In this document: one piece after another, positions 27,258 to 34,098 of the stretch
Position numbering within the stretch: position 1 is the first letter of the stretch
Layout of the letters: the number at the start of each line of letters is the position of its first letter
Origin: an uncultured Candidatus Saccharibacteria bacterium
GTDB taxonomy: Bacteria > Patescibacteriota > Doudnabacteria > UBA920
Assembly: GCA_964561085.1 (NCBI GenBank)
Contig: CAZLNP010000003.1
Span: 7,351-71,350, forward strand
Direction of reading: 5' to 3'
Length of the DNA stretch: 64,000 nt
Notes under the pieces: generated by a model
Told to the model about the DNA's origin: nothing
Seen by the model: only the letters and a program-made list of their open reading frames with translations
The model's database searches: none
Position numbers and translations under genes: made by a program

Positions 27258-27272
27258 ATCCCAAATTATAAC

Positions 27273-27312
27273 AAAAAAAATAGAGGCGTCTGTTTAAATA
27301 ACAAACGCCTCT
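27273..27312 (-). terminator. Intrinsic terminator ending the minus-strand island operon
   Basis: Stem agaggcgt/acgcctct with ~15-nt loop. On the minus strand it is followed by a T8 run (the A8 run on the plus strand). It lies between the island gene ending at 27346 and the GT gene. Confidence 0.6.
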
Positions 27313-27345
27313 AAGTAATTTACCCAGATAAAGCAGTATTGACTA

Positions 27346-28770
27346 CTAAATTACCTGAATATCCAAATCAAGTCCTCCTTGATTATTAGCAAACCATTCG
27401 GCATGCGAACCTTTGCTGTCCGCAGCCATGTCATTAACTGCCAGATAGAGTTCACCATCTTGAGTGGCAGTTAGAACCTGTTCGGCACCGACTAAACTCC
27501 AACTTTGATCGGAGATAGAAGGTGATGAACTGCTGATACGCCCAGCTAAAGCCATGAACGACTGTCCGGCAGGCAAAGGACCTTTTCTTCCAACGTTGAA
27601 AGAAGGTGAATTTTGCCAGCCATTAGCGCCGACCCATTTGTAAGATAGGTCGTTTTTTGTAGCTTCGCTTGAAGCGTTCACCGATCCGTTCGCACGGATA
27701 CGCACTTGTTGACCTTTCTTCAGACGAATACCAGTCGGAAAAATTCCCGAAGCAGCCATCTTAAGATTGGTGCTGGTTACGCCGTCCCATTTGGGATCGA
27801 CGGATACATTGTTGTCTGATTTCGGACTAGTGGTGGAGGTCGAGCCGCCATTGCATATTTGAGTAAATCGACACGGCGCATAATACGTTTTGGTCGATTT
27901 CGCATATAAGCCGTATTGATCCGGCAATTGCACCTCAAACATCTGCTCGCCTTCTGCACTAAACAGTGGCATTTTAGGATTTCTTGCTTTGATTTCTTGA
28001 GTCGTAGGAATGACCCAATTAATCATTGCACCGTTTGCATCAACGACTTGAACGTAATCCCAACTCACCACTTCTTTACCATCAGACATTGTTGTCGTGC
28101 GATCAAAAAGTGGTAATGGTTTTATCGGCTTTGTCGTAACAAAACGGGCATCTTCTTCAACGCCAGCAGCGTAGACATTCTGTTTAGTGTCCGCGAGGTC
28201 AAACCAAGCGGCTAACAAACGAGTTTGTGTCGGAGCTACTATTGGAAATGCGATCGATGCCCCATAGACCATCACTAATATCGTGGAGATAATTAGGATA
28301 GCCCGAGGGACTTGCAAAGGGTTAACTTGAGTCATGCCGCCCCAGGCCCACCAGATAATAATCAGGCAGACTCCGAGAAACAACATCAATCCAGCCGCGC
28401 CCGCGAATGCAGACTTAGACGTATACCAGAGAATGGGGATGAAGGCGAAGATCATTGCAATCAAACCCAAACCATACGCCGGCGAAAAGTTTTCCTTCTT
28501 AAGAAAGAATCTCTTGGACGAATTGATAAACAGAAACGTTCCAAGAGCAGTCAATGATATGGCGCACGAGAACACCGATACGATAACACCGTTACCGGAA
28601 ATGAACCCGATCATCAAGCCAAGGAAAAGGAGACCATAGAAGATAGCCAAATTCCTAAGCCATTTGATCGCCATACCAGCGTAAATTTTCCGATCTCTGT
28701 ATACGGCGCTTGCGCCGCGTAACAAGAGACTAAAGATGAGTGCGATTGCGGAACCGAGTGCTGTGAACAT
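27346..28770 (-). CDS. Polytopic membrane protein with C-terminal LecA/PA-IL-like (lectin-like beta-sandwich) domain
   Basis: ORF 27346..28869. Likely start is the ATG at ~28770 (MFTALGS...), preceded by GGAG. About 6 TM helices. C-terminal ~150 aa (IRANGSV...YKWVGANGWQNS...MALAGRIS...GELYLAVNDMAADSKGSHAEW...LDLDIQVI) resembles the Pseudomonas LecA galactophilic-lectin fold pattern. Confidence 0.5.
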   Translation of the reverse strand: MFTALGSAIALIFSLLLRGASAVYRDRKIYAGMAIKWLRNLAIFYGLLFLGLMIGFISGNGVIVSVFSCAISLTALGTFLFINSSKRFFLKKENFSPAYGLGLIAMIFAFIPILWYTSKSAFAGAAGLMLFLGVCLIIIWWAWGGMTQVNPLQVPRAILIISTILVMVYGASIAFPIVAPTQTRLLAAWFDLADTKQNVYAAGVEEDARFVTTKPIKPLPLFDRTTTMSDGKEVVSWDYVQVVDANGAMINWVIPTTQEIKARNPKMPLFSAEGEQMFEVQLPDQYGLYAKSTKTYYAPCRFTQICNGGSTSTTSPKSDNNVSVDPKWDGVTSTNLKMAASGIFPTGIRLKKGQQVRIRANGSVNASSEATKNDLSYKWVGANGWQNSPSFNVGRKGPLPAGQSFMALAGRISSSSPSISDQSWSLVGAEQVLTATQDGELYLAVNDMAADSKGSHAEWFANNQGGLDLDIQVI

Positions 28771-28786
28771 TTTATTTTTTTCTCCA

Positions 28787-29401
28787 TTATATACCGAGGT
28801 TCTTCCGAATCTCGGCCCAATTGTCCTTAGTCGCCTCGTCCATCGCTTTAACAGCACTAGACTTCGCAACCTCTTTATTTGATCTGCGAAGCTTGCCGAC
28901 TAAACCACCCCATTTATCATCGAGCTTTTGCTCATTGTAGCTCATGATTGTTTTGTGGTTGGCCCACTCATCATCATCGAACTCGGCTATCATCTCGATC
29001 TGCAACATGCAGTTTTGAATTCTAGCCTCTTTATGGGAATTTTTTGCTTCCTGATTGTCTATGTCGCCGACATAAGGCTCCCCTAGCATTGCTAGTCTTG
29101 CCAAATTTGCACGATACGGAGTCAGTTGCGAGAGCTTCCTTTCAGCTTCTGAAGCGAGAGCATAATTTTGCTTTGTTACTCTCGCCAATGCAGTAGCGTA
29201 TAGATTCTCGTCGTCAAGCTCTAAATTTCCAGAAACTGCTATGCGAAATTTTTTAACATCCATCGTTGTAATTTCATCATTAAGTTTTTTCGCACCACTC
29301 TTAATGATATCGATTACTGCCGTAGTGGCAGCTCCGCCAGCGACTCCCTTAAGGATGTCTGCTGCGAATTCCGTTAATTTTTTTGTTTTGCTATCTGCCA
29401 T
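28787..29401 (-). CDS. Hypothetical helical protein (island gene)
   Basis: 204 aa. No TM segment and no recognised motif. Confidence 0.45.
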   Translation of the reverse strand: MADSKTKKLTEFAADILKGVAGGAATTAVIDIIKSGAKKLNDEITTMDVKKFRIAVSGNLELDDENLYATALARVTKQNYALASEAERKLSQLTPYRANLARLAMLGEPYVGDIDNQEAKNSHKEARIQNCMLQIEMIAEFDDDEWANHKTIMSYNEQKLDDKWGGLVGKLRRSNKEVAKSSAVKAMDEATKDNWAEIRKNLGI

Positions 29402-29407
29402 AAATAT

Positions 29408-32584: not shown

Positions 32585-32598
32585 GCGGGAGAAAAACG

Positions 32599-33666
32599 AT
32601 GAACTTTGAATTAGATGATTTCAACATACCAAACGGCGGGCAGCCGAAAACAAGCCCGCTAGCATTGGTCGGTGTAATTTGTTTCATCCTGCTTGCAATC
32701 GGCGGAGCAGTTAGCATGGTCTACTATCTGGCTGTAAAACCGGCGGCAGACTATCAAGTTAAGGTCAGTTCATTCGGACCTTACACACGGGAATTCGGTC
32801 AACCGCCCGTTTCGATACCTCTCGAAGAGGAAATCTTTAGCCCTCAAAAAGTTAAAGACTATCGGAACGGCGAAGGCTTCTCCTTCGAACTCATCAAAAA
32901 GTTCAAGGGAAAAGTTGACTCGAAAATAACGATCGAACTGAAGCCTTGGGATGAACATCTCGATGGTGGACGCGGAAATCGGGACAAACGACTCGCGGAT
33001 GTCCAGAAAAAACGAGAATCGGCTCGAAAGTTAATAGAGGCTTTCAATTCGGATGAGGCTCGAAAATGGTCGCTCCTCTTGTTTCTTGACGGAACAAGCG
33101 GAACAGGACCTCAGCTCACCGAAGGAGTCAATCAGGGCTTTGCCAGTTTCGGAATCGCCGAATTGTTAAAAAACGGCGACACGGCAACTGTTCAAGCCAT
33201 TATTCTCAATAGTAGCGGAACTACCGAAATCAAGGAAGTTAGCGTTACACGAGACGAGAGTGAATTACAATCACTCAAGGAGTGGTTACTCAAAAAACGA
33301 ACTGATGAAGGAAACAGCGCGCTCGCAACAGGCATATTCAATGTCCTGTCGCAGACGGAAAATCCTTACACTAAATTGGTCATAATCAGCGACGGTCTTG
33401 AAAATAGCGTAGGAACCACAAATTTCTACGCTAAGAAAGATCAGCTTGTTAAGGGCAAAACTGATAAAGCAGAGTGGCAGAAAATCGCCGGGGAAATCCA
33501 GCGACAGAAGGCTGTTCCTGATTTATCAGGGAAGGAAGTGTTGTGGATTCTGTATCCGACTCCAGGCAGCTCAGATGAACTCATCTTCGCTGCTGAGGGT
33601 TTCTGGGCTTGGTTCTTAACAGAACAAGCCGGCACAGTTAAAACTAAGGTCATGAAGCTTAATTAG
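32599..33666 (+). CDS. Membrane-anchored von Willebrand factor A (vWA) domain protein
   Basis: 355 aa. N-terminal signal-anchor (LALVGVICFILLAIGGAVSMVYYL). MIDAS-like LLLFLDGTSGTG, then VIISDGLEN, typical vWA beta-strand motifs. RBS GGGAGAAAAACG. Confidence 0.55.
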   Translation: MNFELDDFNIPNGGQPKTSPLALVGVICFILLAIGGAVSMVYYLAVKPAADYQVKVSSFGPYTREFGQPPVSIPLEEEIFSPQKVKDYRNGEGFSFELIKKFKGKVDSKITIELKPWDEHLDGGRGNRDKRLADVQKKRESARKLIEAFNSDEARKWSLLLFLDGTSGTGPQLTEGVNQGFASFGIAELLKNGDTATVQAIILNSSGTTEIKEVSVTRDESELQSLKEWLLKKRTDEGNSALATGIFNVLSQTENPYTKLVIISDGLENSVGTTNFYAKKDQLVKGKTDKAEWQKIAGEIQRQKAVPDLSGKEVLWILYPTPGSSDELIFAAEGFWAWFLTEQAGTVKTKVMKLN

Positions 33667-33686
33667 AGCTTCTGACTATATCTTTG

Positions 33687-33725
33687 AGGCAGGGCGATGT
33701 TTACATCTCCCTGCCTTACTTTTTA
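33687..33725 (+). terminator. Rho-independent terminator ending the plus-strand island operon
   Basis: Stem gaggcaggg/ccctgcct, ~13-nt loop, T-run. Confidence 0.6.
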
Positions 33726-33778
33726 AAAGATTAAATAATTCGAATTTGGAGGATTTATCAAATTCTTATAAAACTAAA

Positions 33779-33812
33779 CGAGCGTACACAATATGTATAC
33801 GCTCGTTTTTTT
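33779..33812. terminator. Second, near-palindromic hairpin terminator
   Basis: cgagcgtacacaatatgtatacgctcg followed by T7 on the plus strand. It also lies just downstream of the minus-strand gene ending at 33811. Confidence 0.55.
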
Positions 33813-34098
33813 ATTTCAATGCTTCTCGCGCTTCTGCTAAACCAACCTCATCATTAAATTTGGTATCTTTTTTATCTACTACTTCTATAGTCTTTAACAC
33901 CTCTTCCAATAGTGCGCTCTCTCTTTCATTCACCTCGGTAACAGCTTTCATGTAAGCCTGTGCCACGAGCACATGAACTTTACCTCTTTCTTCAGACCCC
34001 GTGTCTTGGCTTAGGTACTGTTTTAACAAAGGCAATGCATCTTCCCAGTGTCCATCCTCCAGAAGACTAAATAATTTAGTTGTGTCAGTATTTTCCAT
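33811..34098 (-). CDS. Small helical (TPR-like) protein
   Basis: 95 aa. Helix-turn-helix repeat-like (ALPLLKQYL...AQAYMKA...). Confidence 0.4.
   Translation of the reverse strand: MENTDTTKLFSLLEDGHWEDALPLLKQYLSQDTGSEERGKVHVLVAQAYMKAVTEVNERESALLEEVLKTIEVVDKKDTKFNDEVGLAEAREALK

What the first reader, a model, noticed from the sequence alone, without database searches (positions are those of the whole stretch)
27258..33820. Higher-G+C, terminator-bounded ~6.4-kb island with two divergent operons of uncharacterised membrane, vWA and lectin-like proteins
Read by eye, this stretch uses many more C/G-ending codons than its flanks (for example GAA CTC ATC AAG TTC, against AAA ATT TTT in the neighbouring GT gene); this was not computed. 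The region is closed by strong intrinsic terminators at 27273-27312 (minus strand) and at 33687-33725 and 33779-33812 (plus strand). Transcription starts from back-to-back near-consensus promoters (TTGACA-17-TATTAT and TTGACA-17-TATACT) in the 30.6-31.0 kb divergent region. The minus-strand operon holds four genes: a Pro/Arg-rich 3-TM protein, a beta-rich 214-aa protein, a helical 204-aa protein, and a 6-TM protein with a C-terminal LecA/PA-IL-like domain. Their starts and stops overlap or are nearly contiguous (TAAAAATG), which suggests translational coupling. The plus-strand operon holds a 532-aa 4-TM protein with long helical arms and a membrane-anchored vWA protein (MIDAS DGTSGTG, ISDGLEN). 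No protein carries a recognisable catalytic motif and there is no integrase or transposase. The gene content does not match any named secretion, pilus or defence system I can recall. One hypothesis is a horizontally acquired cell-surface attachment module (lectin plus vWA, plausible for an episymbiotic CPR cell). Another is a novel vWA-based membrane stress or defence system.
Basis: partly seen in the sequence, partly recalled or inferred. Interest (0 to 1): 0.8.

Follow-up and report, generated by a model that had tools for sequence, protein, structure and literature searches.

The report
Strain-variable membrane lectin and vWA cassette
This stretch of an uncultured ultra-small (CPR/Patescibacteria) bacterium is a real, recently exchanged accessory gene block; it encodes a membrane protein that displays a swappable sugar-binding (LecA-type) domain on the cell surface, plus a rare membrane-anchored vWA-fold protein, so it is a plausible but untested cell-surface recognition module.

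Summary
The six genes have GC3 of 0.44 against 0.34±0.05 for the rest of the window (p=5e-6). They are driven by mirror-image 11/12 promoters and closed by three stable terminators.

The two fold calls are supported:
- A profile of the P4 C-terminal domain family matches PllA/LecA (E=5e-13 and 1e-10).

No protein matches Pfam, PADLOC or PHROGs. P5 and P6 are near-orphans, with 2 and 4 clusters among 5.8 billion proteins.

The island is an inner block of a larger ~10.3-kb hypervariable slot (about 24981-35305). The slot lies between a core TraD/VirD4-like ATPase gene and a core gene block (an unnamed 218-aa gene, GtrA, DnaX). Most relatives have no insert there.

One genome has an identical ATPase protein but lacks P1, P3, P5 and P6. 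Synonymous divergence jumps from 0.05-0.08 in P5/P6 to 0.8-1.1 in the adjacent genes. Between near-identical strains the lectin domain is swapped. The window has also lost a third plus-strand gene carrying an HExxH motif.

Best reading: a recombination-diversified envelope and surface-recognition cassette. Adhesion itself is inferred. A defence role has no support.

The parts
30052..30555 (-). P1: 167 aa, with a Pro/Arg-rich N-terminal half and a hydrophobic C-terminal half. First gene of the minus-strand operon.
Evidence: ORF and RBS. Homologues occur only in L003 (84% aa) and L002 (35%). No family hits. dN/dS against L003 is about 0.32.
29408..30049 (-). No TM segment or signal sequence was found.
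   Evidence: TAA-AA-ATG junction with P1. The family is also present in L002, L003, L006, L017 and L019. No significant family hits; the only ones are sub-threshold Pfam matches at E 0.06-0.1.
28787..29401 (-). An orphan.
   Evidence: Homologue found only in L003. The proteins at the same position in L002, L006, L019 and L037 are not detectably homologous by hhalign.
27346..28770 (-). P4: 474 aa. It has 6 TM segments (residues 5-175), an external middle region, a Ser/Thr-rich linker and a C-terminal PA-IL/LecA-like domain.
   Evidence: The positive-inside pattern puts the 299-aa C-terminal part outside the cell. Family members occur in 12 related slots. The exhaustive search finds 70 representatives; most match only the C-terminal domain.
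27349..27780 (-). PA-IL/LecA-like lectin domain of P4 (residues ~331-474). This domain is replaced by a different subtype in L003; the similarity break is at window 27830.
   Evidence: Profile A4 against the PDB: PllA 5odu E=4.9e-13 and LecA 1l7l E=1.4e-10, over the full length. Four of 11 members hit Pfam PF07828. The L003 swap is shown.
30695..30771 (.). Back-to-back promoters. Minus strand: 30723-30695, TTGACA-17-TATTAT. Plus strand: 30743-30771, TTGACA-17-TATACT. They form a 27-nt imperfect inverted repeat.
   Evidence: searches (11/12 matches, with TG motif; repeat I1) and conservation in L002.
30778..30985 (+). Leader of P5, about 208 nt: conserved and strongly structured.
   Evidence: MFE -67 kcal/mol, z=-5.45, 0 of 200 shuffles fold as well. 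Mean column identity across the four aligned intergenic regions (window, L003, L004, L002) is 90%, and blastn identity to L002 is 81%, with 2 compensatory pairs. No Rfam hit.
30986..32584 (+). P5: 532 aa, with two TM hairpins (189-237 and 293-340) flanked by helical arms of ~190 aa each that are predicted to be cytoplasmic.
   Evidence: Topology. Long helices 74-173 and 353-453 appear in an otherwise unusable model (pLDDT 36). Only 2 clusters in 5.8e9 proteins. A distant homologue occurs in L037 and L086.
32599..33666 (+). P6: 355 aa, with an N-terminal TM anchor, a small beta domain (56-114) and a vWA-fold domain (~156-353) that has a non-canonical metal site.
33685..33727 (+). Terminator-like hairpin after P6. 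The P7 deletion junction lies at 33724|33725.
   Evidence: -23.2 kcal/mol, z=-5.2. Relatives carry a 331-aa gene with a TM anchor and HEGSH motif between this hairpin and the next one.
33776..33815 (.). Bidirectional terminator shared by the plus-strand operon and the convergent R95-R378-ATPase operon.
27273..27313 (-). Terminator of the minus-strand operon: a 14-bp stem followed by T8.
   Evidence: -21.4 kcal/mol, z=-8.3.
24981..35305 (.). The larger hypervariable slot that contains the island. It also holds the AT-rich GT2+multi-TM gene (25044-27257) and the fast-evolving R95 (33811-34098) and R378 (34103-35239).
   Evidence: DNA similarity to all relatives stops at the ATPase stop codon. 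In L010 it resumes at 24981. Gene maps of 80 loci are.

Best explanation
**What it is.** The segment is a functional accessory envelope cassette that is exchanged by recombination. It sits inside a ~10-kb replacement hot spot between core genes of a Patescibacteria (CPR) genome. The core genes are a TraD/VirD4-like ATPase on one side and the 218-aa gene/GtrA/DnaX block on the other.

**Shown**
- Two tightly packed operons diverge from mirror-image near-consensus promoters.
- The minus-strand operon ends in a 6-TM protein. Its large C-terminal part is predicted to be outside the cell and ends in a PA-IL/LecA-type lectin domain. That domain is swapped between strains.
- The plus-strand operon encodes a 4-TM protein with two long helical arms, predicted to be cytoplasmic, and a membrane-anchored vWA-fold protein.
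- In relatives a third gene follows (TM anchor plus HExxH motif). It has been deleted in the window.
- All six genes are under purifying selection.

**Inferred**
- P4 acts as a membrane-tethered glycan-binding receptor or adhesin. Its specificity is re-assorted by lectin-domain replacement. It would recognise partner/host cells or the cell's own surface glycans made by the adjacent Gtr-like glycosylation genes.
- P5/P6(/P7) form a membrane complex that is co-regulated with it and works with it. The basis is co-occurrence of the two modules in two very divergent versions, and the shared palindromic promoter region.
- Exchange occurs by homologous recombination through the conserved flanks. No integrase or att site was found.
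For: **Accessory status and exchange**
- L006 has 100% aa identity in the ATPase and in SecY (dS 0.33 and 0.16). It lacks P1, P3, P5 and P6, and its R378 and R95 are only 20-24% identical.
- Most of the 80 syntenic loci have the ATPase followed directly, or after a few small ORFs, by the 218-aa/GtrA/DnaX genes.
- Against L004, dS is 0.054 for P5 and 0.084 for P6, but 1.1 for R95 and 0.77 for R378.
- GC3 and tetranucleotide composition are shifted.
- dS is mosaic inside the island against L003, ranging from 0.05 to 0.30.

**Lectin**
- Searches support the PA-IL/LecA-type assignment.
- The domain swap at window 27830 is seen. The L003 domain is 53% identical to that of L011.

**vWA fold.**

**Genes are functional.** dN/dS is 0.04-0.32.

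**Link between the two modules**
- L037 and L086 carry P5-like, P6-like and P4-like genes plus a multi-TM GT gene in the same slot, at 22-24% identity.
- The divergent promoters are mirror images.
- The intergenic region is 81% identical to L002 by blastn (90% mean column identity across the four relatives). There P5 DNA is 69% identical, P6 is 82%, and the P2-P4 coding DNA is unalignable.

**Surface context**
- The neighbouring 221-aa gene is GtrA-like (Pfam E=7.6e-14).
- The GT2 domain is of the polyprenyl-phosphate-sugar synthase type.

**Literature.** Lectin-like proteins are proposed to mediate host glycan binding in Saccharibacteria (PMC11623550).
Against: - No binding, localisation or expression data exist.
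- The window's own lectin domain does not reach Pfam PA-IL on its own. It carries an 8-residue insertion inside the LecA Ca/galactose-site motif.
- The P6 model is only of moderate confidence (pLDDT 64). Its metal site is not DxSxS, and its orientation is ambiguous.
- P5's arms are predicted to be cytoplasmic. This fits a scaffold or signalling role better than an adhesin role.
- P1, P2 and P3 remain without any assignment. P2 and P3 have no export signal.
- Co-occurrence of the two modules rests on only two independent versions.
- In L004 the sequence upstream of the P5 leader differs from the window from position 30566. P5-P6-P7 may therefore also occur without P1-P4.
Confidence: 0.55

Rival explanations
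1. A novel membrane-associated anti-phage defence or envelope-stress system built on the vWA protein. P5's cytoplasmic coiled-coil arms and a cytoplasmic P6 vWA domain would sense infection or damage. In relatives the HExxH protein P7 would be the effector.
For: - The block lies in a strain-variable hot spot, as defence islands do.
- P5's arms are predicted to be cytoplasmic and P6's orientation is ambiguous.
- Relatives carry an HExxH protein.
- The families are extremely rare.
- Strong promoters are followed by structured leaders.
Against: - None of the six proteins hits PADLOC or PHROGs.
- The window has no NTPase, nuclease, protease or toxin domain.
- The presumed effector P7 is deleted here, yet P5 and P6 remain under purifying selection.
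- The module co-occurs with an outward-facing lectin protein and glycosylation genes.
- No relatives were found in IMG/VR.
Confidence: 0.15
2. A self-directed envelope-biogenesis accessory. The P4 lectin would bind the cell's own glycans, made by the neighbouring GtrA/GT2/multi-TM GT genes, to organise or anchor an S-layer or wall polymer. Its variation would track changes in the cell's own glycan type rather than in host specificity.
For: - P4-family genes lie directly upstream of multi-TM GT genes in 9 or more related slots.
- The neighbouring gene is GtrA-like, and the GT2 domain is of the polyprenyl-phosphate-sugar synthase type.
- P4 has a Ser/Thr-rich linker that could be O-glycosylated.
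- The GT gene is itself compositionally deviant and variable.
Against: - The multi-TM GT domain matches no known GT-C family or PDB sequence.
- The lectin domain is swapped between L003 and the window. The GT content also differs between the two, but no consistent lectin-GT pairing could be tested.
- This reading overlaps with the best explanation and does not exclude it.
Confidence: 0.18
3. Accessory parts of a conjugation-like or DNA-transfer apparatus built around the adjacent TraD/VirD4-like ATPase. They would supply the adhesin and membrane-channel components.
For: - The 849-aa neighbour hits TrwB_AAD_bind, T4SS-DNA_transf and TraD/CedB models.
- The slot always starts directly after this gene.
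Against: - The ATPase is a core gene in 543 or more loci. In most of them the 218-aa/GtrA/DnaX genes follow directly, with no cargo.
- The slot has no VirB4, VirB6, relaxase or pilin family.
- The operons have their own promoters and are separated from the ATPase operon by a terminator.
Confidence: 0.05
4. A remnant of a prophage, plasmid or other integrative element.
For: Compositional deviation, terminator-bounded modular operons, and strain variability.
Against: - No integrase, transposase or relaxase.
- No tRNA in the window and no att-like repeats.
- No DNA match in the phage or plasmid collections.
- No PHROGs hit and no IMG/VR relative of P6.
Confidence: 0.03

Closest known systems
PA-IL/LecA (Pseudomonas aeruginosa) and PllA (Photorhabdus) galactose-binding lectins, Pfam PF07828
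   Same: The P4 C-terminal domain family aligns over the full domain (E=5e-13 to PllA, 1e-10 to LecA). It keeps the G..V.V.A.G, GAL..KIG and ND...(D/N)N.G motifs.
   Different: - LecA and PllA are small soluble tetrameric proteins. Here the domain is the outward-facing C-terminus of a 6-TM protein, behind a Ser/Thr-rich linker.
- The window subtype has an 8-residue insertion in the Ca-site loop and is not recognised by Pfam on its own.
- The domain is exchanged between strains.
Bacterial vWA-domain surface or membrane proteins: S. sanguinis PilB minor pilin (7b7p), Mfa5, GBS104 tip pilin and Bacteroides BatB (3ibs)
   Different: - No sequence-level vWA signal.
- The metal site is D-G-T-S-G / S240 / D265 instead of DxSxS / T / D.
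- There is no pilin, sortase, MoxR or Bat partner. The partner here is a 4-TM coiled-coil protein.
- Orientation relative to the membrane is unresolved.
Flexible ('replacement') genomic islands for cell-surface structures, at fixed positions between core genes, such as O-antigen or glycosylation loci (from established knowledge)
   Same: - Fixed chromosomal slot.
- Unrelated or highly divergent alleles in close relatives.
- Compositional deviation.
- Glycosyltransferase content.
- No integrase.
- Exchange through conserved flanks.
   Different: The cargo is dominated by unassigned membrane proteins, a tethered lectin and a vWA protein rather than by a sugar-biosynthesis pathway. The setting is a reduced CPR genome.
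Gtr-type three-component glycosylation (GtrA flippase, GtrB GT2, GtrC-type multi-TM transferase)
   Same: The neighbourhood has a GtrA-family protein (PF04138) and a GT2 of the polyprenyl-phosphate-sugar synthase type fused to a multi-TM domain.
   Different: The multi-TM domain could not be assigned to GT-C. No link to P1-P6 beyond adjacency was shown.
Lectin-like minor pilins PilX1/PilX2 of Saccharibacteria TM7x (PMC11623550)
   Same: They are proposed glycan-binding proteins for host recognition in an episymbiotic CPR bacterium.
   Different: They have different folds (L-type and PLL-type) and are carried on type IV pili. P4 is an integral membrane protein with a PA-IL-type domain, and no pilin genes are present.

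Membership tests
PA-IL/LecA lectin domain (PF07828) | Profile-level sequence similarity over the whole ~120-aa domain | tested here: met
   Family profile A4 against the PDB: 5odu E=4.9e-13 and 1l7l E=1.4e-10, full length. Four of 11 members hit PF07828, best E=1.2e-8. The window member alone gives no Pfam hit at E<=1.
PA-IL/LecA lectin domain (PF07828) | Ca2+/galactose-site residues (LecA D100, N107, N108 within 'NDVPGTYGNNSG'; residue numbers from my own knowledge) | tested here: inconclusive
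   The window has NDMAADSKGSHAEWFANNQGG. The ND and NN.G parts are kept, but there are 8 extra residues between them. Members such as L061 and L048 keep the LecA spacing.
PA-IL/LecA lectin domain (PF07828) | Carbohydrate binding | not testable with these tools
   Needs a glycan array or ITC with the recombinant domain.
von Willebrand A domain | Alpha/beta fold with vWA strand and helix order | tested here: met
von Willebrand A domain | Match to curated vWA sequence models | tested here: not met
   No Pfam, NCBIfam or PDB-sequence hit for P6 or its family profile.
von Willebrand A domain | MIDAS motif DxSxS ... T ... D | tested here: inconclusive
   The conserved residues are D164-x-T166-S167-G168, S240 and D265. 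The spacing fits, but the first motif is not DxSxS. Metal binding is untested.
Known anti-phage defence systems (PADLOC-DB 2.0) | At least one component matching a defence-system HMM | tested here: not met
   Zero hits for P1-P6 at E<=1. Only the core ATPase outside the island hits the mad8 and HerA models.
Integrative mobile element (prophage, ICE, transposon) | Integrase, transposase or relaxase; att repeats or a tRNA target; similarity to phage or plasmid DNA | tested here: not met
   no such families; no tRNA; no flanking repeats; no viral or plasmid matches.
Flexible/replacement genomic island at a core-gene-flanked hot spot | Presence/absence or allelic replacement at the same locus in close relatives | tested here: met
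   L006 has an identical ATPase protein but a different slot. Most loci have no insert.
Flexible/replacement genomic island at a core-gene-flanked hot spot | Discontinuity in divergence and composition at the borders | tested here: met
   dS is 0.05-0.08 inside the block against 0.77-1.1 in the adjacent genes, compared with L004. GC3 p=5.5e-6 and tetranucleotide z=3.0.
Type IV secretion / conjugation system | VirB4 ATPase, VirB6-like channel and relaxase together with the coupling protein | tested here: not met
   Only the coupling-protein-like ATPase is present, and it is a core gene without this cargo in most relatives.

The most novel reading that the evidence does not exclude
P1-P4 and P5-P6(-P7) together form a previously undescribed, co-regulated trans-envelope recognition apparatus of CPR bacteria. 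An exchangeable outward-facing PA-IL lectin would read partner-cell glycans. A membrane complex of a coiled-coil 4-TM protein, a divergent vWA protein and an HExxH protein would couple that event to the cytoplasm. Expression would be gated by new classes of long structured leader RNAs. Strain-level swapping of the lectin domain would set host range.
Probability: 0.1. Interest if true: 0.8.

Novelty: new variant of a known kind. Interest (0 to 1): 0.45.

Why it matters
How ultra-small episymbiotic CPR bacteria recognise and hold on to their partner cells is largely unknown. Lectin-like pilins are the only current candidates (PMC11623550).

This locus offers a concrete second kind of candidate:
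- a membrane-tethered LecA-type lectin whose sugar-binding domain is exchanged between otherwise near-identical strains;
- it sits in a recombination hot spot next to surface-glycosylation genes;
- it is paired with two protein families that are almost unique in current databases.

The locus also shows that reduced CPR genomes keep classical 'replacement islands' without any integrase. In addition, it provides two unrelated long structured leaders as candidate new cis-regulatory RNAs.

The limits are that the families are very rare, the organism is uncultured, and every functional statement is inferred.

Tried and rejected
**Family and homology searches**
- Pfam, PADLOC, PHROGs and NCBIfam scans of all six proteins gave no significant hits; the only matches were sub-threshold Pfam/PHROGs ones.
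- Profile searches of the P6 and P5 families against PDB sequences gave nothing for P6 and only weak apolipoprotein-type coiled-coil noise for P5.
- Searches of the 5.8-billion-protein collection found only 4 clusters for P6 and 2 for P5, so alignments stayed shallow.
- hhalign between P1/P3 and the genes at the same positions in L002, L006, L017, L019 and L037 gave no homology. Between P5 and candidates in L006, L017 and L019 it also gave none. Probabilities were below 10%.
- No paralogue of the lectin, P5 or P6 families occurs elsewhere in the window.

**Structure**
- The AlphaFold model of P5 came out at pLDDT 36 and was not used for fold comparison.
- The afdb50 fold library was unavailable.
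- The multi-TM part of the GT family gave no PDB hit, so 'GT-C' stays an inference.

**Mobile-element controls**
- P6 family against viral contigs: none. Against metagenome contigs: one extra locus only.
- Island DNA against the phage and plasmid collections: no match.
- tRNA and att-repeat search: negative.

**RNA and literature**
- Rfam found nothing over 24-36 kb in the window or in L086. L004 gave only three sub-threshold matches, none above a gathering score.
- Literature searches found no description of this locus.

**Readings considered and rejected**
- A single foreign high-GC donor as the cause of the GC3 shift. Cargo genes exceed the local background by about 0.1 in relatives whose backgrounds range from 0.33 to 0.59.
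- A MotA/ZorA-like stator reading for P5/P6, from my own knowledge. P6's TM segment has no conserved Asp, and PADLOC finds no Zor hit.

Full report

The window has 40.6% G+C. The flagged stretch runs at 42-46% in 1-kb bins, which is a modest rise. The rise looks larger next to the unusually AT-rich GT gene on its left (34.5%).

At third codon positions the shift is clear. The six genes have GC3 of 0.405-0.472 (mean 0.437), against 0.338 ± 0.046 for 60 other ORFs (Mann-Whitney p = 5.5e-6). Only five small background ORFs reach 0.41.

Tetranucleotide deviation peaks over P5-P6 (z = 3.0, the highest in the window) and over the GT gene (z = 2.5). It does not peak over the minus-strand operon.

The promoter scan finds about as many ≥9/12 matches as chance predicts (22 against 18.7). 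However, the only two 11/12 matches, both with an extended TG motif, lie back to back in the divergent gap. They form a 27-nt inverted repeat and are conserved in the most distant relative that keeps this architecture.

All three terminators fold into stable hairpins followed by U-runs (-21.4, -23.2 and -16.7 kcal/mol; z = -8.3, -5.2 and -5.4). The rightmost one is bidirectional and also closes the convergent R95-R378-ATPase operon.

The gene structure is as described. An independent gene call on an identical public contig agrees. The junctions are TAA-AA-ATG and gaps of 6, 16 and 14 nt, each preceded by a GGAG-type ribosome-binding site. P2 is 213 aa (29408-30049), not 214.

**2. What the proteins are**

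None of the six proteins reaches any family in Pfam, PADLOC, PHROGs or NCBIfam.

*P4.* Collecting the family from related loci (13 members) shows four parts:
- a poorly conserved multi-TM N-terminus;
- a middle beta-rich region;
- a Ser/Thr/Pro-rich linker;
- a recurring C-terminal domain.

A profile of 11 such C-terminal domains matches PllA (5odu, E = 4.9e-13) and LecA/PA-IL (1l7l, E = 1.4e-10) end to end. Four members pass Pfam PA-IL on their own. The window-type subtype occurs in tandem with canonical PA-IL domains in unrelated proteins.

The window copy keeps the ND…NN.G element of the LecA Ca/galactose site, but with an 8-residue insertion. The positive-inside pattern is clean: K/R-rich loops 1 and 3, and near-uncharged loops 0, 2 and 4. 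It places the 299-residue C-terminal part outside the cell.

The fold call therefore stands. The metal site is not a canonical DxSxS, and sequence models do not recognise the domain. The charge balance around its single TM segment does not decide which side the domain faces.

*P5.* It has two TM hairpins and two arms of ~190 residues each, flanked by K/R-rich segments, so the arms are predicted to be cytoplasmic. Its model was unusable (pLDDT 36) and shows only very long helices.

*P1, P2 and P3.* These remain unassigned.

**3. Rarity and distribution**

P6 has 4 clusters and P5 has 2 clusters among 5.8 billion proteins. P6 has no relative in IMG/VR and only one further metagenome locus.

An exhaustive HMMER search with P4 finds 70 representatives among 1.84 billion. 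About five of them cover the membrane and middle part. The rest share only the lectin domain.

**4. Genomic context changes the picture**

I anchored on the neighbouring 849-aa TraD/VirD4-like ATPase and fetched 80 syntenic loci from Patescibacteria MAGs, variously labelled Saccharibacteria or Doudnabacteria.

DNA similarity of every relative to the window ends at the ATPase stop codon (~35305). In L010 it resumes only at 24981.

In most loci the ATPase is followed directly, or after a few small ORFs, by the 218-aa gene, GtrA and DnaX. A sub-clade carries a 5-10-kb insert of variable content. This insert typically holds:
- an acidic ~380-aa protein;
- a ~95-aa protein;
- assorted unique proteins;
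- a P2-like gene and a P4-like gene;
- multi-TM glycosyltransferase-like genes.

The sharpest contrast is with L006. Its ATPase and SecY proteins are 100% identical to the window's (94-97% nt; dS 0.33 and 0.16). Yet R378 and R95 are only 20-24% identical, P2 is 27% identical, and P1, P3, P5 and P6 are absent.

The opposite pattern appears against L004. There dS is 0.054 for P5 and 0.084 for P6, but 1.1 for R95 and 0.77 for R378 immediately next door.

Inside the block, dS against L003 is mosaic, ranging from 0.05 to 0.30. P4 is 95% identical up to residue 313. After that point the lectin domain is replaced by a different subtype, which is 53% identical to that of L011.

dN/dS is 0.04-0.32 for all six genes, so they are functional.

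No integrase, tRNA, att repeat, or phage or plasmid similarity was found. Exchange by homologous recombination through the conserved flanks is the simplest mechanism; this is an inference.

The raised GC3 recurs in slot cargo of most relatives, whatever the background. One example is 0.70-0.72 against 0.59 in L037. This argues against a single foreign donor. It fits a property linked to the hot spot itself, for example biased gene conversion or expression-linked codon choice; this too is an inference.

**5. Are the two operons one system?**

- L037 and L086 carry P5-like, P6-like and P4-like proteins at 22-24% identity, plus a multi-TM GT. All are on one strand, after analogues of R378 and R95. 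The two modules therefore co-occur in two very divergent versions.
- In the window type, the 430-bp divergent region is 81% identical to L002 by blastn, with 90% mean column identity across the four aligned relatives. In the same comparison P5 DNA is 69% identical and P6 is 82%, while the P2-P4 coding DNA is unalignable.
- The promoters are mirror images.
- Against linkage: the L004 contig departs from the window at 30566, just at the P1 ribosome-binding site, into a terminator-like sequence. P5-P6-P7 may therefore also exist without P1-P4.
- Relatives carry a third plus-strand gene (331 aa, TM anchor, HEGSH motif). The window has cleanly lost it at 33724|33725.

**6. Interpretation**

Shown:
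- a functional, strain-variable block that is exchanged by recombination;
- an outward-facing, swappable PA-IL-type lectin on a 6-TM anchor;
- a membrane-anchored vWA-fold protein paired with a 4-TM coiled-coil protein;
- coordinated strong promoters.

Inferred: a cell-surface recognition or adhesion role. This is plausible for an episymbiotic CPR cell and consistent with the proposal that lectin-like proteins mediate host glycan binding in Saccharibacteria (PMC11623550).

A self-directed role in organising the cell's own glycans is a close rival. It is suggested by the adjacent GtrA, GT2 and multi-TM GT genes.

A defence or envelope-stress role cannot be excluded, because P5 is cytoplasmic and P6's orientation is ambiguous. 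It has no positive support.

A role in conjugation together with the ATPase is unlikely, because the ATPase is a core gene that lacks this cargo in most relatives.

**7. Novelty and score**

The folds and the island type are known. The following are not described, to my knowledge or in the searched literature:
- a 6-TM-tethered PA-IL lectin with strain-level domain swapping;
- a near-orphan TM-vWA protein with a coiled-coil membrane partner;
- their setting in a CPR replacement hot spot.

I rate it a new variant of a known kind, with interest 0.45. It is a useful, testable lead for CPR surface biology. It is rare, belongs to an uncultured organism and is functionally unproven.

Noticed in passing
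window 33724|33725; L003 8265-9260, L004 3208-4203, L002 6772-7767, L005 1204-2019: All relatives carry a third plus-strand gene after P6: 331 aa, an N-terminal TM anchor and an HEGSH (HExxH) motif, with no Pfam hit. The window has lost it by a clean ~1-kb deletion between the two terminators.
   Followed up: partly
window 30778-30985 (+); L037 14060-14365 and L086 516-821: Both types of P5-P6 operon have a near-consensus promoter followed by a long, very stable leader. The window leader is 208 nt (z=-5.45). The L037/L086 leader is ~280 nt (-131.7 kcal/mol, z=-9.4), and its few substitutions preserve pairing. The two leaders share no sequence similarity and neither is in Rfam. They are candidate new cis-regulatory RNAs.
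   Followed up: partly
window 30698-30724 / 30742-30768: The two divergent promoters form a 27-nt imperfect inverted repeat centred near 30733. This could be a shared operator for one regulator.
   Followed up: no
window 33811-35239 (R95, R378); L006 5762-7199: The acidic coiled-coil 378-aa protein and the 95-aa protein (weak, sub-threshold TPR match) directly after the core ATPase are hypervariable. They are 20-24% aa identical between genomes whose ATPase proteins are 100% identical. They occur only in genomes with slot cargo.
   Followed up: partly
window 25044-27257 (-): - The GT gene is the most AT-rich gene in the window (G+C 0.345; tetranucleotide z=2.5).
- It fuses a polyprenyl-phosphate-sugar-synthase-type GT2 to a multi-TM domain. 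In L048 and L061 the two parts are separate genes.
- An extended -10 box (TGTTATAAT) lies 8 nt before its ATG, right after the upstream terminator. This suggests a nearly leaderless mRNA.
   Followed up: partly
L004 1-33 vs window 30556-30566: The L004 contig departs from the window exactly at the P1 ribosome-binding site, into a terminator-like sequence (GGCAGGGCTTAGCCCCGCC followed by T7). In that strain the P5-P6-P7 module may lie next to something other than P1-P4.
   Followed up: no
window 35306-37855 (-): The core 849-aa TraD/VirD4-like ATPase matches phrog_5156 over its full length (E=3.8e-91). It has 543 or more relatives across Patescibacteria MAGs, next to SecY and the ribosomal protein genes. 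Its role in these genomes is unclear.
   Followed up: no
L006, L009-L011, L019, L020, L037, L046, L061 (slot genes): Cargo genes of the slot have GC3 about 0.1 above the local background in most relatives, whether that background is 0.33 or 0.59. L012 and L002 are exceptions.
   Followed up: partly
L014 and L016, downstream of the ATPase: Two relatives carry a different cargo in the same slot: a ~1500-aa protein with one TM segment, plus a ~640-aa protein with 3 TM segments.
   Followed up: no
window 19560-19940 and 49360-49683: Two small ORFs elsewhere in the window also have high GC3 (0.49 and 0.46).
   Followed up: no
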